Shown here: piece after piece, positions 46,367 through 53,941 of the stretch | Numbering within the stretch: the stretch's first letter is position 1 | How the letters are laid out: the number at the start of each line of letters is the position of its first letter | The notes under the pieces: model-generated | Databases searched by the model: none | What the model saw: the letters and a program-made list of their open reading frames with translations, nothing else | Told to the model about the DNA's origin: nothing | Made by a program: the position numbers and the translations under genes | From: a virus | Taxonomy: Duplodnaviria > Caudoviricetes | Virus record (IMG/VR): IMGVR_UViG_3300042914_002678 | Length of the DNA: 64,000 bases | Reading direction: 5' to 3' (one strand)

Positions 46367-46529
46367 ATCACAAACTGATAAATGGGATCGAGGTCTAACT
46401 CTTTTTGAGGAGAGTGTATTAAAACCTGATCCAGAACTTCGTCAGTGTGCTCACAATCAAAAGTGTTACAATGAACTCATGGCAGTGCGTGAGCATGTGT
46501 TAGAATACCTCAAAACTTTAAGACAATGA
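46353..46529 (+). CDS. Small hypothetical protein (58 aa)
   Basis: KWDRGLTLFEESVLKPDPELRQCAHNQKCYNELM; coupled to the next gene. Confidence 0.55.
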   Translation: MEQNESQTDKWDRGLTLFEESVLKPDPELRQCAHNQKCYNELMAVREHVLEYLKTLRQ

Positions 46530-46765
46530 GTTCCACTTACATATACTTTGTTATCTTTTTTTGTATTGCTTACTTAATTGTTACCGATCAATCCATAGCG
46601 AGGGCATTTTATATGCTGACTCAACTTGCTCAAGTACAATATGAAAAAACAAAGTGGTGGATAATTCACTCACCAGATAATATCATAGTTAAATGGTTGA
46701 TTTACAGAAAATCTATGAAGATGGCGAAAGAACTGATGGGAGAATTGGAAAAGAAGAATAAATAA
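46526..46765 (+). CDS. Small membrane protein
   Basis: N-terminal hydrophobic helix; ATGA coupling. Confidence 0.55.
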   Translation: MSSTYIYFVIFFCIAYLIVTDQSIARAFYMLTQLAQVQYEKTKWWIIHSPDNIIVKWLIYRKSMKMAKELMGELEKKNK

Positions 46766-46865
46766 TAATGCTTTTATGTGTGGTAACTAAAAGCAAAAGG
46801 GGGGATCCCCCCCCTTTTTTACTGCGTAATTCGTATAAATAGTATTACCACACATAAAAAGCAGT
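46758..46865 (+). ncRNA. Structured regulatory cassette 1 upstream of a GIY-YIG gene (candidate sRNA plus leader)
   Basis: ATAAATA, hairpin GCTTTTA/TAAAAGC, G6/C-rich terminator with T6, TATAAATA, then a leader complementary to 46770-46786. Confidence 0.6.
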
Positions 46866-47480
46866 ATGAATACTCTACGCATATACACTTATCGTATATC
46901 CTTTGAGGAAGTGCCGTATTATTATTATGGGGTCCATAAAGAAAAAAATTTTAACGAAGAGTATTATGGGTCTCCTGTAACCAACAGATGGTGCTGGGAA
47001 ACTTATACTCCAAAGAAACAGATATTAGAATATTTTGTTGATTGGGAAGAAGCGCAAAGAGTAGAAGCAAGAATAATAAAAGAGTTTTATAATAAAGATA
47101 AGTGGTGTCTAAATGAAAATTGTGCTGGGTATATATCCTTACAGAAAAGAAGTGAGGCAGGAAAAGTTGGAGGTAAAAGGGGGTCGGCAAAATGTAAAGA
47201 AATGGGAATCGGAATATTTGGGATGTCCTCAGAAAAAAGAACTGAAACTGCTAAAAAATCTGTTAAACAGGCAAAGAAAAATAAAACTGGTATATTTGCT
47301 CTAACAAAAGAGCAATTAGTTGAGAATGGAAAAAAAGGTGGTATAATATCTTCTAAAAAGTTAAACTCTCAAAAGTGGATGTGTTTGGAAACTGGTATGG
47401 TATCTACCATAGGTCCTCTTACAAGGTATCAAAAAGTGAGGGGTATTGATACTTCTAAAAAAGTAAAAATAAATAACTAA
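46866..47480 (+). CDS. GIY-YIG (Seg-like) putative homing endonuclease
   Basis: IYTY..ISF...YYYYGVH, YYGSP, catalytic-type EARII, CLNEN; basic repeated C-terminus. Confidence 0.7.
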   Translation: MNTLRIYTYRISFEEVPYYYYGVHKEKNFNEEYYGSPVTNRWCWETYTPKKQILEYFVDWEEAQRVEARIIKEFYNKDKWCLNENCAGYISLQKRSEAGKVGGKRGSAKCKEMGIGIFGMSSEKRTETAKKSVKQAKKNKTGIFALTKEQLVENGKKGGIISSKKLNSQKWMCLETGMVSTIGPLTRYQKVRGIDTSKKVKINN

Positions 47481-47499
47481 AACGGGGGTAAAACAAAAA

Positions 47500-48297: not shown

Positions 48298-48774
48298 ATG
48301 GATTACTTAAGAATTGAACCTGGAAAATCTGTTTTAGTTTTAAATTCCAGTTATGAACCACTTAACATTACAAGTTGGAAGAGAGCAATAGTTTTACTTC
48401 TCAAAGAAAAAGCACAAATTCTTTCAACTCAAGTAATCAGATTATTAGATTATGTGAAAGTTCCACTTTCAAAAATTATGTCACATAGACCATCAAAAAC
48501 GATGATCTATAAGCGTGATAGTAATTCTTGTCAGTATTGTGGATCTACCAGAAATCTAACCATAGATCATATCATTCCAAAATGTCGAGGTGGTGAAGAT
48601 ACTTGGGAAAATCTTGTAGTTGCATGTAGTTCATGTAATACAAAAAAAGGTAATACATTATTGGAGCAAACTGGAATGAAATTGAGAAAAAAACCCAGAC
48701 CTCCATTAAACAAAATGCAGTTTACTCTGCACAGTTCAAATATCCAAGAATGGAAATTATACACTTATTCGTAA
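48298..48774 (+). CDS. HNH endonuclease
   Basis: VLVLNSSYEPL N-terminus; RDSNSCQYCG, TIDHIIPK..GG..TWENLV.ACSSCN..KG. Confidence 0.9.
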   Translation: MDYLRIEPGKSVLVLNSSYEPLNITSWKRAIVLLLKEKAQILSTQVIRLLDYVKVPLSKIMSHRPSKTMIYKRDSNSCQYCGSTRNLTIDHIIPKCRGGEDTWENLVVACSSCNTKKGNTLLEQTGMKLRKKPRPPLNKMQFTLHSSNIQEWKLYTYS

Positions 48775-53087: not shown

Positions 53088-53091
53088 TAGA

Positions 53092-53197
53092 ATAAATAGA
53101 AGTGTCTGTTTGGACGGCAATCTCTACAGACAAAAGATTAGGTGCTTTCGGGCACCTTTTCTATTATAAATAATAATGCCGTCCAAATAGAATAGAA
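53092..53197 (+). ncRNA. Structured regulatory cassette 2 upstream of a GIY-YIG gene (candidate sRNA plus leader)
   Basis: ATAAATA, hairpin GTCTGT/ACAGAC, terminator AGGTGC/GCACCT plus T-tract, TATAAATA, then a leader complementary to 53106-53119. Confidence 0.6.
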
Positions 53198-53863
53198 ATG
53201 ACTAAAAATAGTCCTAGAATTTACACATATAAGGTTACCTTTGAAGAAGTTCCTTATTACTATTATGGTAGTAAAAAAGAAAGGTATTTTGATGAAGAGT
53301 ATTGGGGTTCTCCCGTAGCAAACAAATGGTGTTGGGGACTTTATACTCCAAAGAAACAGATATTGGAATATTTTGAGTTTAGTGATGAAGGATATATCAA
53401 AGCACAAGAAGTTGAAGGGAGATTAATTAACCCAGTATATAATACCGATAAATGGTGCTTAAATGAAAGTTGCTTGGGAGTTTTTTCTTTAGAGCAAAAA
53501 AGTAAAGCAGGAAAAAAAGCATATGAACTTAAATTAGGGGTTCATTCAAGAAGTAAAGACCAAATGAGTAAAGATGGTAAAAAAGGTGGAAACAGCAATA
53601 GAGAAAATAAAACTGGAATTTGTGGAAGAAGTTTGGAAGAAATGATTGAACACGGCAGAATAACTGGTTATAAAAAGAAAGAATTAAATATCGGTGTTTG
53701 TGGTTTATCAAAAGAACAGAGAATTGAAAATTCTAAAATAACTAATTCTCAAAGATGGAAATGTTGTATAAGTGGTTATGTATCTACTGCTTCTGGTGTA
53801 GTTCAGCATCAAAAAGGAAAAGGAATAGATACATCAAAAAGTAATAGACGCAGAATAGCATAG
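53198..53863 (+). CDS. GIY-YIG (Seg-like) putative homing endonuclease, paralog of 46866-47480
   Basis: RIYTYKVTFEEVPYYYYGSKKE, YWGSP, EGRLI, CLNES; three C-terminal repeats. Confidence 0.7.
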   Translation: MTKNSPRIYTYKVTFEEVPYYYYGSKKERYFDEEYWGSPVANKWCWGLYTPKKQILEYFEFSDEGYIKAQEVEGRLINPVYNTDKWCLNESCLGVFSLEQKSKAGKKAYELKLGVHSRSKDQMSKDGKKGGNSNRENKTGICGRSLEEMIEHGRITGYKKKELNIGVCGLSKEQRIENSKITNSQRWKCCISGYVSTASGVVQHQKGKGIDTSKSNRRRIA

Positions 53864-53920
53864 GACACTTCTCAAACTGGAACAAGGGCACTTGAAAACG
53901 GGTGCCCTTTGTCGTATAAT
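53863..53920 (+). promoter_or_regulatory. Early-promoter cassette copy 3
   Basis: GGACACTTCTCAAACTGGAAC, stem AAGGGCAC/GTGCCCTT enclosing TTGAAA, 17 nt to TATAAT. Confidence 0.8.
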
Positions 53921-53941
53921 GACTTCATAAGAAACAAACCG

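What the first reader, a model, noticed from the sequence alone, without database searches (positions are those of the whole stretch)
46758..46868. Candidate sRNA-leader control cassette on GIY-YIG endonuclease 1
Seen, in order: late promoter ATAAATA (46758); hairpin GCTTTTA-[TGTGTGGTAAC]-TAAAAGC (46770-46794); strong terminator (46795-46820); second late promoter TATAAATA (46834); leader TTACCACACATAAAAAGC (46845-46862), the reverse complement of 46770-46786 with one extra A; ATG at 46866. Known: T4 homing endonuclease genes use late promoters with RBS-sequestering hairpins. The separately promoted and terminated ~55-nt unit displaying the antisense seed in a loop goes beyond that. Inference: a dedicated kissing-loop antisense RNA (type I antitoxin-like) travels with the nuclease and silences its translation; alternatively the arms pair in cis on read-through RNA.
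Basis: partly seen in the sequence, partly recalled or inferred. Interest (0 to 1): 0.8.

Follow-up and report, generated by a model that had tools for sequence, protein, structure and literature searches.

The report
Anti-leader control module of phage homing nucleases
Upstream of a homing-endonuclease gene in a freshwater T4-like cyanophage sits a conserved control module: a late-promoter motif, a hairpin carrying the complement of the mRNA leader, a terminator and a second late promoter. It extends the known T4 trick of hiding a nuclease's ribosome site and may also make a small antisense RNA.

Summary
The 15-nt perfect inverted repeat is the only one of its kind in the 64-kb window.

The same architecture recurs in 116 unique modules from lake phage contigs and from phages S-SRM01 and B23. 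Its order is P1 (N[A/C]TAAATA), anti-leader hairpin H1, GC-rich terminator, P2 (TATAAATA), complementary leader, ATG. It precedes at least five classes of free-standing homing endonuclease.

The arms are hypervariable but stay complementary. Cognate duplexes average -23.5 kcal/mol against -10.8 for non-cognate ones, and all 10 core pairs show double-sided changes.

The best-supported mechanism is the known T4 type (I-TevI, segB, mobE; also noted in GOS phage loci by Dassa 2009). RNA that contains both arms buries the leader. Only transcripts started at P2, inside the loop, are translatable.

Three features go beyond that model:
- an invariant P1 motif that travels with the cassette;
- H1 beginning at P1's predicted +1;
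- a terminator between the arms.

Together they predict a discrete RNA of about 56 nt carrying the anti-leader. Action in trans is plausible (about 0.4) but untested, because no informative RNA data exist. The "type I antitoxin" label is not supported. Overall this is a new variant of a known kind.

The scan's first-stage notes already held the same idea for both cassettes of this window.

The parts
46526..46765 (+). Upstream 79-aa ORF (phrog_3344). Its last codons AAT AAA TAA form the P1 motif.
   Evidence: In 50 unique cassette-free relatives the gene also ends ...AAT AAA TAA, followed about 22 nt later by the ATG of the phrog_507 gene.
46757..46764 (+). P1: late-promoter motif AATAAATA (NATAAATA form). 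Predicted +1 is G46770.
   Evidence: The core TAAATA is kept in 67/68 homologous loci while the bases upstream carry no information. It is present in all 66 pattern-derived loci. NATAAATA is the cyanomyovirus late-promoter consensus (PMC2984593). The motif occupies -13..-6 in T4, and CTAAATA is the Aeh1 form (PMC1524935).
46770..46794 (+). H1: local hairpin. The 5' strand plus loop (46770-46786) is the anti-leader, i.e. the 5' arm of the long-range helix.
   Evidence: H1 begins 5-6 nt after P1 in 59/68 loci. H1 has 6 pairs, 4 of them with double-sided changes, and 79.7% of cells are paired.
46795..46820 (+). Intrinsic terminator (G6/C8 stem, T6 tail; A-tract upstream, so possibly bidirectional).
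   Evidence: A GC-rich hairpin plus T-run is conserved in this position in all loci and ends a median of 2 nt before P2.
46834..46841 (+). P2: consensus late promoter TATAAATA, inside the loop of the long-range helix. Predicted +1 is A46847.
   Evidence: TATAAATA is perfect in 64/68 loci, and the 6th base after the motif is G in 93%.
46845..46862 (+). Leader, i.e. the 3' arm, complementary to 46770-46786 with one bulged A. It covers the 5' UTR up to 4 nt before the ATG.
   Evidence: Cognate duplex is -24.0 kcal/mol. In modelled heteroduplexes, pairing runs from mRNA +1 to a median of -7 from the AUG across loci.
46866..47480 (+). 204-aa Seg-like homing endonuclease gene (nuclease 1).
   Evidence: phrog_314 homing endonuclease, E 6.6e-10. 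T4 SegC 29% identity, E 6e-4 to 8e-4. 1190 homologues. No Pfam GIY-YIG hit at threshold.
53091..53200 (+). Second copy of the module with an unrelated arm sequence: P1 53091-53098, H1 from about 53103, terminator, P2 53165-53172, leader, ATG 53198.
   Evidence: cognate duplex -26.4, cross-pairing with cassette 1 only -6.8 and -5.8 kcal/mol. Empty alleles of this site lack any TAAATA.
53198..53863 (+). 221-aa paralogous Seg-like endonuclease gene (nuclease 2).
   Evidence: The N-terminus carries the same RIYTYK.TFEEVPYY motif.

Best explanation
The stretch is the 5' control module of a free-standing homing-endonuclease gene cassette in a freshwater T4-like cyanomyovirus.

Proposed mechanism:
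1. An intrinsic terminator stops most transcription entering from upstream.
2. Any RNA that carries the 5' arm and still reads through folds a 15-18-bp long-range helix. That RNA may start at upstream promoters or at P1. The helix buries the leader from its first nucleotide to a few bases before the AUG, including the purine-rich Shine-Dalgarno-like tract, so the nuclease is not translated.
3. The strong late promoter P2 lies inside the loop. P2 transcripts start at the first bases of the 3' arm, lack the 5' arm and have a free leader.
4. The nuclease is therefore made only late and only from P2 mRNA.

This is the T4 I-TevI/e/soc/segB/mobE type of control, here combined with a terminator and packaged as a portable module.

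Shown:
- the elements, their order and spacing;
- their conservation in 116 unique modules;
- covariation of the arms, of H1 and of the terminator;
- their association with several nuclease families.

Inferred:
- promoter activity and start sites;
- the degree of termination;
- translational repression.
For: - The minimum-energy fold of 46755-46880 is the arm-arm helix enclosing the terminator and P2 (-42.8 kcal/mol, z -6.6).
- 68 of 70 unique upstream regions of homologous nuclease genes share the architecture.
- Arm/leader duplexes: cognate mean -23.5 against non-cognate -10.8 kcal/mol. 98.5% of cognate pairs reach -20 or better, against 1.1% between the 15 arm types.
- RNAalifold on a plain MAFFT alignment independently picks 7 arm pairs, each with 24-30 double substitutions.
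- Pair counts: 86.5% paired against 72.4% in shuffles (0/500) and 42-51% when partners are slid. All 10 core pairs have double-sided changes.
- P2 is TATAAATA in 64/68 loci and always lies between the arms.
- Among 40 loci with a 94%-identical terminator, the arms are only 44% identical yet remain complementary.
- The same module precedes HNH-like and three other GIY-YIG-like nuclease classes.
- Literature: RBS-sequestering hairpins with late promoters placed so that late RNA escapes are described for I-TevI/II/III, segB and Aeh1 mobE (PMC2988022, PMC2330249). Hairpins bearing TATAAATA were seen upstream of 15/16 phage-like endonuclease genes in GOS data (PMC2677866).
Against: - A conserved canonical terminator sits between the two arms, so only read-through RNA can form the cis helix. 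The read-through fraction is unknown.
- The AUG itself is usually unpaired, and the most perfect pairing lies at the 5' end of the leader rather than at the Shine-Dalgarno tract.
- A cis-only model does not explain three observations: a late-promoter motif is invariant directly upstream of the 5' arm; H1 is maintained by covariation; and both helix ends coincide with predicted transcription starts.
- There is no transcript or translation data for any member.
Confidence: 0.65

Rival explanations
1. A dedicated trans-acting anti-leader RNA, which could act in addition to the cis mode or as the principal mode. P1 is an active late promoter. Its transcript starts at the base of H1 and ends at the terminator, giving a stable RNA of about 56 nt (51 nt in this window) made of two hairpins. 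The H1 loop and 5' strand pair with the first 14-18 nt of the P2 mRNA. This blocks ribosome access or triggers cleavage and sets a threshold on nuclease synthesis late in infection. Terminated 3' ends of upstream mRNAs carry the same anti-leader and could act likewise.
For: - The P1 core TAAATA is kept in 67/68 loci of the protein-selected set and in all 66 unique loci of the pattern-selected set, while the flanking spacer and the arms diverge.
- Both P1 variants (NATAAATA, CTAAATA) are known late-promoter forms in T4-like phages (PMC2984593, PMC1524935).
- At insertion site 2 the empty alleles have no TAAATA, so P1 came in with the cassette.
- With the motif at -13..-6, +1 falls on the first base of H1 in 59/68 loci and is G in 76%. 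P2's +1 (G in 93%) falls at the start of the 3' arm, so the helix runs from one predicted start to the other.
- H1 covaries although it competes with the cis helix.
- The terminator lies between the arms.
- Modelled RNAs are 48-63 nt, and heterodimers are favoured by a mean of -13.7 kcal/mol, pairing the mRNA from +1 to -7.
- Co-resident cassettes are orthogonal in 5 of 6 genomes.
Against: - No small RNA has been observed. The only RNA-library contig covers the 3' end of the nuclease ORF.
- P1 lacks the -13 T (T in 35%) and has C at -12 in 21% of loci, so it may be weaker than P2. An antisense RNA in deficit would repress little.
- One genome carries two cassettes with identical arms.
- No conserved YUNR U-turn was seen in the H1 loops of the two module types inspected by eye.
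- At site 1 the motif pre-exists as the end of the upstream gene.
Confidence: 0.4
2. P1 and the promoter/stem-loop layout are mainly recombination handles and stop-codon carriers for cassette mobility. This would be a late-promoter analogue of the PeSL promoter/stem-loop cassettes of T4-type phages. On this view P1 is retained because cassettes enter new sites by crossover at resident late promoters, not because its transcript matters.
For: - At site 1, empty alleles already carry AATAAATAA, and at least three different cassettes sit at exactly that junction.
- P1 and P2 with their next 7 nt are about 15-nt direct repeats.
- The upstream ORF stops inside P1's TAA triplets in 37/68 loci.
- Identical arm cores are shared between different nuclease classes, which shows module shuffling.
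- PeSL precedent: PMC2839356, PMC4122927.
Against: - This does not explain the covariation of the arms or of H1.
- It does not explain the invariance of all six TAAATA positions, including A5, which no stop codon needs.
- At site 2 the empty allele offers no promoter homology.
- PeSLs use sigma-70 early promoters, not late ones.
Confidence: 0.15
3. The inverted repeat acts at the DNA level, for example as a cruciform, a nuclease binding site or an autorepression operator like that of I-TevI, rather than as RNA.
For: I-TevI binds an operator overlapping its late promoter (PMC2988022). The repeat flanks P2.
Against: - The arm sequences are hypervariable, and identical arms serve unrelated nuclease families with different DNA-binding modules.
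- G-U pairs are tolerated in the helices, which points to RNA.
- A 58-nt spacer makes cruciform extrusion unfavourable.
Confidence: 0.03

Closest known systems
T4-type translational control of late and homing-endonuclease genes by an RBS-sequestering hairpin with an internal or adjacent late promoter (I-TevI, I-TevII, I-TevIII, segB, Aeh1 mobE; also T4 e, soc) - PMC2988022, PMC2330249
   Same: A stable helix hides the translation-initiation region on RNAs started upstream. A TATAAATA late promoter is placed so that late RNA lacks the 5' arm. The regulated gene is a selfish nuclease in a T4-like phage.
   Different: An intrinsic terminator lies between the arms. A second late-promoter motif sits directly upstream of the 5' arm. 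The 5' arm is pre-folded in a covarying local hairpin. The helix spans the whole 5' UTR from the predicted +1, and the AUG is mostly unpaired. The unit is a portable module shared by several nuclease families.
5'-UTR hairpins of free-standing endonucleases in 'fractured gene' loci of marine metagenomes (Dassa et al. 2009, PMC2677866)
   Same: Phage-like GIY-YIG and other free-standing nucleases. 15/16 have a hairpin upstream of the start codon and 10 include TATAAATA. Two conserved motifs complement each other in the stem.
   Different: The main text of that paper, searched by keyword, mentions no terminator, no second promoter and no small RNA. The present set is freshwater, much larger, and quantifies covariation and module shuffling.
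Adjacent but non-overlapping antisense regulators of type I toxin-antitoxin loci (IstR-1/tisB, OrzO/zorO) - from my own knowledge
   Same: A small RNA gene next to its target, with 15-20 nt of complementarity to the target's 5' UTR, could block translation or trigger cleavage.
   Different: Here the two units are tandem on the same strand, so cis pairing is also possible. No toxin phenotype is known. Both promoters are phage late promoters. The small RNA itself is unobserved.
PeSL promoter(early)-stem-loop mobile regulatory cassettes of T4-type phages (PMC2839356, PMC4122927)
   Same: Short promoter plus terminator/stem-loop composites recur at gene junctions in plastic genome regions and appear to be shuffled between contexts.
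   Different: PeSLs carry sigma-70 early promoters and have no anti-leader complementarity. This module carries late-promoter motifs and a covarying arm/leader pair tied to nuclease genes.
CfrI antisense RNA of cyanophage S-PM2 (Millard et al. 2010, cited in PMC2984593)
   Same: An RNA regulator associated with a homing-endonuclease gene in a T4-like cyanophage.
   Different: CfrI is a ~225-nt true antisense transcript from the opposite strand, spanning the nuclease gene and psbA. It is not a same-strand upstream hairpin RNA.

Membership tests
T4-type late-promoter / RBS-sequestering hairpin control | Stable RNA helix that includes the Shine-Dalgarno region and/or start codon of the regulated gene | tested here: met
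   The helix covers the leader to -4 of the AUG in the window and to a median of -7 across loci. It includes the purine-rich AGAG/AAGA tract, while the AUG itself is mostly unpaired. Covariation is shown.
T4-type late-promoter / RBS-sequestering hairpin control | Late promoter positioned so that late transcripts lack the 5' arm | tested here: met
   P2 (TATAAATA in 64/68) lies between the arms in all 68 loci. Its predicted +1 falls at the start of the 3' arm.
T4-type late-promoter / RBS-sequestering hairpin control | The gene is also carried on longer upstream-initiated transcripts in which the helix forms | not testable with these tools
   A conserved terminator precedes P2, and read-through cannot be measured. 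The only RNA contig covers 47264-47485.
T4-type late-promoter / RBS-sequestering hairpin control | Demonstrated translational repression relieved in late RNA | not testable with these tools
   This needs reporter or infection experiments.
Adjacent trans-acting antisense sRNA (type I TA-like) | Own promoter for the small RNA | tested here: inconclusive
   A late-promoter motif is conserved (67/68 and 66/66), with H1 at the predicted +1. Promoter activity has not been shown.
Adjacent trans-acting antisense sRNA (type I TA-like) | Discrete small transcript | not testable with these tools
   The predicted RNA is 48-63 nt. No small-RNA data exist, and the laid RNA runs do not cover the module.
Adjacent trans-acting antisense sRNA (type I TA-like) | Extended complementarity to the target mRNA translation-initiation region | tested here: met
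   15-18 nt in the window. There are a median of 14 intermolecular pairs, and ddG averages -13.7 kcal/mol.
Adjacent trans-acting antisense sRNA (type I TA-like) | The target encodes a toxin whose unchecked expression harms the cell | not tested
   No toxicity evidence exists. The target is a homing endonuclease.
GIY-YIG (Seg-like) homing endonuclease | Match to the GIY-YIG catalytic domain profile (PF01541) | tested here: not met
   The window protein gives no hit at E<=0.1. One of 29 family members hits at E 0.058, below the cut-off.
GIY-YIG (Seg-like) homing endonuclease | GIY...YIG motifs and similarity to characterised Seg proteins | tested here: inconclusive
   The IYTY...YYYG motifs are invariant. 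T4 SegC matches at 29% over 120 aa, E 6e-4 to 8e-4. phrog_314 homing endonuclease matches at E 6.6e-10.
GIY-YIG (Seg-like) homing endonuclease | GIY-YIG alpha/beta fold | tested here: inconclusive
   The AF2 N-domain model has pLDDT 69 and beta-beta-alpha-beta-alpha order. Foldseek against the PDB finds nothing significant; UvrC GIY-YIG 1yd3 ranks 3rd at E 2.5.
PeSL mobile regulatory cassette | Sigma-70 early promoter joined to a stem-loop terminator | tested here: not met
   Both promoter motifs are late-type (N)ATAAATA. No sigma-70-like site was reported in 46757-46865.
Any Rfam family | Covariance-model match at the gathering score | tested here: not met
   The best matches reach 18-22 bits against gathering scores of 42-172.

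The most novel reading that the evidence does not exclude
Free-standing homing endonucleases of T4-like cyanophages travel with their own late-expressed anti-leader RNA of about 56 nt (P1-H1-terminator), which silences the nuclease mRNA in trans. The hypervariable but self-matched arm/leader pairs would act as specificity determinants, keeping cassettes in one genome orthogonal. Nuclease-less remnants of the module might even let a phage blunt the nuclease of a co-infecting rival. This would be a new class of portable RNA-antisense control for selfish nuclease genes in lytic phages.
Probability: 0.35. Interest if true: 0.8.

Novelty: new variant of a known kind. Interest (0 to 1): 0.6.

Why it matters
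Homing endonucleases drive gene exchange among T4-like phages, and how they are kept harmless is only partly understood.

This work shows that freshwater cyanophages use one portable, modular 5' control unit for at least five nuclease classes. The unit's specificity segments, the arm and the leader, evolve fast but always in step.

The cis part generalises the T4 paradigm to an abundant environmental phage group. The added promoter, hairpin and terminator give a concrete, testable prediction of a late small RNA in a lytic T4-like phage, where few regulatory RNAs are known.

The natural set of orthogonal arm/leader pairs could also serve as ready-made parts for RNA-based gene control.

Tried and rejected
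- **RNA evidence.** Two run searches found only metatranscriptome contigs. Laying three RNA runs gave a 222-nt contig at 47264-47485 and short, poorly matching pieces. Nothing covers 46757-46865, so this says nothing about a small RNA, read-through or start sites.
- **Own genome.** No whole genome is held for the window.
- **Rfam.** There are no meaningful matches.
- **Cultured phages with transcriptomes.** blastn of the module against the phage collection found only S-SRM01. tblastn found full-length homologues only in S-SRM01, B3 and B23. Published Syn9 or S-PM2 start-site data therefore cannot be used.
- **GIY-YIG fold.** The full-length AF2 model was poor in the N-domain (pLDDT<50). A deeper N-domain alignment gave pLDDT 69, but Foldseek found nothing significant. 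The PDB profile search and an hhalign against a weak GIY-YIG relative were empty.
- **S-RIM8 as an empty site.** The junction gp135/gp136 is tight and has no late promoter. However, its upstream gene ends differently, so it is not a clean comparison.
- **Stop-codon explanation of P1.** The upstream ORF ends inside P1 in only 37/68 loci, and the invariant A5 is not needed for any stop. This explanation is rejected as the sole cause.
- **HNH gene in the window.** The HNH gene at 48298 has no such module; it directly abuts the preceding ORF.
- **Aeh1 mobE papers.** Two papers could not be used: PMC1913452 is not held and PMC2655525 was not looked up.

Full report
**Observation**

The sequence at 46757-46868 reads, in order:
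- AATAAATA (P1, 46757-46764), whose TAA at 46763-46765 is the stop of a 79-aa ORF;
- GCTTTTA-TGTGTGGTAAC-TAAAAGC (hairpin H1, 46770-46794);
- AAAAGGGGGGATCCCCCCCCTTTTTT (terminator, 46795-46820);
- TATAAATA (P2, 46834-46841);
- TTACCACACATAAAAAGC (46845-46862);
- ATG (46866) of a 204-aa ORF.

The 15-nt arms 46772-46786 and 46845-46859 are perfectly complementary. They are the only such repeat in the window. As RNA, 46755-46880 folds at -42.8 kcal/mol (z -6.6) into the long-range arm helix enclosing the terminator and P2. The P1-to-terminator unit alone forms two hairpins. A leader started after P2 is essentially unstructured.

**Context**

The window is from a T4-like cyanomyovirus (Kyanoviridae) of lakes.

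The ORF is a Seg-like homing endonuclease:
- phrog_314 matches at E 6.6e-10.
- T4 SegC matches at 29% identity, E about 6e-4 to 8e-4.
- It has 1190 homologues.

Pfam GIY-YIG is not matched, and a fold test was inconclusive. "GIY-YIG" therefore rests on the invariant IYTY...YYYG motifs only.

**Conservation**

I collected 80 IMG/VR loci with a profile of the protein, plus S-SRM01 and two B23 loci. Of 70 unique upstream regions, 68 have the same layout:
- P1 is N[A/C]TAAATA.
- H1 follows 5-6 nt later in 59/68.
- A GC-rich terminator ends a median of 2 nt before P2.
- P2 is TATAAATA in 64/68.
- The 3' arm follows 3-4 nt later.
- The ATG lies 23-30 nt after P2.

The arm sequences fall into 15 unrelated types but always match their own leader:
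- Cognate duplexes average -23.5 kcal/mol against -10.8 for non-cognate ones.
- 98.5% of cognate duplexes reach -20 or better, against 1.1% between arm types.
- RNAalifold on a plain MAFFT alignment picks 7 arm pairs, each with 24-30 double substitutions.
- Counted on that alignment, the arm helix plus terminator is 86.5% paired, against 72.4% in shuffles (0/500) and 42-51% with slid partners.
- All 10 core arm pairs show double-sided changes.

H1 is also supported. It has 6 pairs, 4 of them with double-sided changes (for example U-A 28 / C-G 24), and 79.7% of cells are paired.

Among 40 loci whose terminator is 94% identical, the arms are only 44% identical. Complementarity is what is selected, not sequence.

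**A generic module**

An exact-pattern scan for the commonest terminator-P2 junction gave 73 usable loci. Only 20 precede this nuclease family. The rest precede an HNH-like class and three other GIY-YIG-like classes. Four of the five non-family representatives tested carry NUMOD3 motifs.

All 66 unique loci from this scan have TAAATA upstream, H1 mostly 5-6 nt after it, and cognate duplexes of -23 to -25 kcal/mol. Ten identical arm cores are shared between different nuclease classes. In total there are 116 unique modules.

The window holds a second module at 53091-53200 before a paralogous nuclease. Its arms do not cross-pair with cassette 1: -6.8 and -5.8 against -24.0 and -26.4 kcal/mol.

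**What is known**

The cis reading is textbook T4 biology.
- RBS-sequestering hairpins that form on upstream-initiated RNA, and that are escaped by transcripts from a late promoter within or next to the hairpin, are documented for I-TevI/II/III. They are proposed for segB and Aeh1 mobE, and shown for e, soc and others (PMC2988022, PMC2330249).
- Dassa et al. 2009 saw hairpins upstream of 15/16 free-standing nuclease genes in marine metagenomic phage-like loci. Ten contained TATAAATA, and two motifs complemented each other (PMC2677866). A keyword search of that paper's main text finds no terminator and no small RNA.
- No Rfam family matches.

**What goes beyond the known**

*P1.* The conservation boundary is sharp. 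Information content is about 0.1-0.3 bit upstream, 1.3 at position 1 (A 54, C 14) and about 2.0 for TAAATA (67/68). The first base is free (T in 35%), unlike P2 (T in 94%).

NATAAATA is the accepted cyanomyovirus late promoter (PMC2984593). In T4 the motif lies at -13..-6. The -13 T is poorly conserved in other T4-like phages, and Aeh1 uses CTAAATA (PMC1524935). Both P1 variants are therefore known late-promoter forms.

The implied +1 is the sixth base after the motif. It is G in 76% of loci for P1 and 93% for P2. It coincides with the base of H1 and with the start of the 3' arm respectively. The helix thus runs from one predicted start to the other.

*Origin of P1.*
- At site 2, eight empty alleles read ...CCACAGTGAAAC... 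with no TAAATA. P1, preceded by TAGTAG stops, came in with the cassette.
- At site 1, 50 unique cassette-free relatives already end the upstream gene with AAT AAA TAA, about 22 nt before the next ATG. Different cassettes occupy exactly this junction. This suggests entry by crossover at a resident late promoter.

*Stop codons.* The upstream ORF stops within P1 in 37/68 loci. The motif doubles as a stop. Stops alone do not explain six invariant positions.

*The predicted small RNA.* Modelling P1-to-terminator RNAs gives 48-63 nt (median 56; 51 in the window). They are predicted to pair with the P2 mRNA from +1 to a median of -7 from the AUG, with ddG averaging -13.7 kcal/mol.

**Weighing**

The cis mechanism needs only read-through and is backed by strong precedent. 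I give it 0.65 as a real function.

The trans model explains features that the cis model leaves idle: P1, H1, the terminator between the arms, and helix ends at the predicted starts. If P1 fires, pairing is physically hard to avoid.

Against the trans model:
- No RNA has been seen.
- P1 looks weaker than P2.
- One genome has two cassettes with identical arms.

I put the trans model at about 0.4; it is not exclusive of cis.

A PeSL-like recombination-handle role for P1 may coexist (0.15; PMC2839356, PMC4122927). A DNA-level role is unlikely, given G-U tolerance and arm sharing between unrelated nucleases (0.03).

**Verdict**

- The finding is a new variant of a known kind of control: widespread, modular and well supported by covariation. 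It carries a specific, untested prediction of a late anti-leader small RNA.
- The type I antitoxin label should be dropped.

Noticed in passing
window 47320-47347 (+): The best sigma-70-like promoter of the 6-kb region (TTGAGA-16 nt-TATAAT with a TG extension, 11/12) lies inside the 3' part of nuclease gene 1, about 150 nt before the next gene (47500). This resembles T4 seg and mob genes, which embed promoters for the downstream host gene.
   Followed up: no
window 53863-53935 (+): Directly after the stop of nuclease 2 comes a GC-rich hairpin (GGGCAC...GTGCCC plus TTT) followed by TATAAT. This is a terminator/early-promoter composite, as an earlier first-stage note also reported for 53863.
   Followed up: partly
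L214-L293 (junction after the phrog_3344 gene; window 46757-46770): The same gene junction is empty in 50 unique relatives (...AAT AAA TAA, about 22 nt, then the ATG of the phrog_507 gene). In other phages it is filled by cassettes with different arms and even a different nuclease class. It looks like a hot spot for cassette entry at a resident late-promoter motif.
   Followed up: partly
L153, L155, L135 (viral contigs): Modules with intact, still complementary arms precede truncated HNH-like ORFs of 12, 6 and 57 codons. The control module appears to outlive the nuclease gene.
   Followed up: no
window 47366-47474; S-PM2 NC_006820 137625-137732: The last ~36 residues of the nuclease (...WMCLETG...YQKVRGIDTSK) are 53% identical to a stretch in the psbA region of S-PM2 and S-RSM88. 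That suggests a shared C-terminal DNA-binding module with nucleases of marine cyanophages.
   Followed up: no
window 46799-46814 vs L013 98-117: A 99%-identical contig differs in the terminator. It has G9-TA-C8 (contains GGTACC) where the window has G6-AT-C8 (contains GGATCC). This is either a length and loop polymorphism in the homopolymer stem or an assembly artefact.
   Followed up: no
window 48298-48774 (+): A 158-aa HNH endonuclease gene (PF01844, E 2e-16) abuts the preceding ORF and has no anti-leader module. Not all nuclease genes of this phage use the module.
   Followed up: partly
window 47264-47485: A 222-nt contig from a 2016 aquatic metatranscriptome library matches the 3' end of nuclease gene 1 with one difference. 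This is compatible with transcription, but DNA carry-over cannot be excluded.
   Followed up: partly
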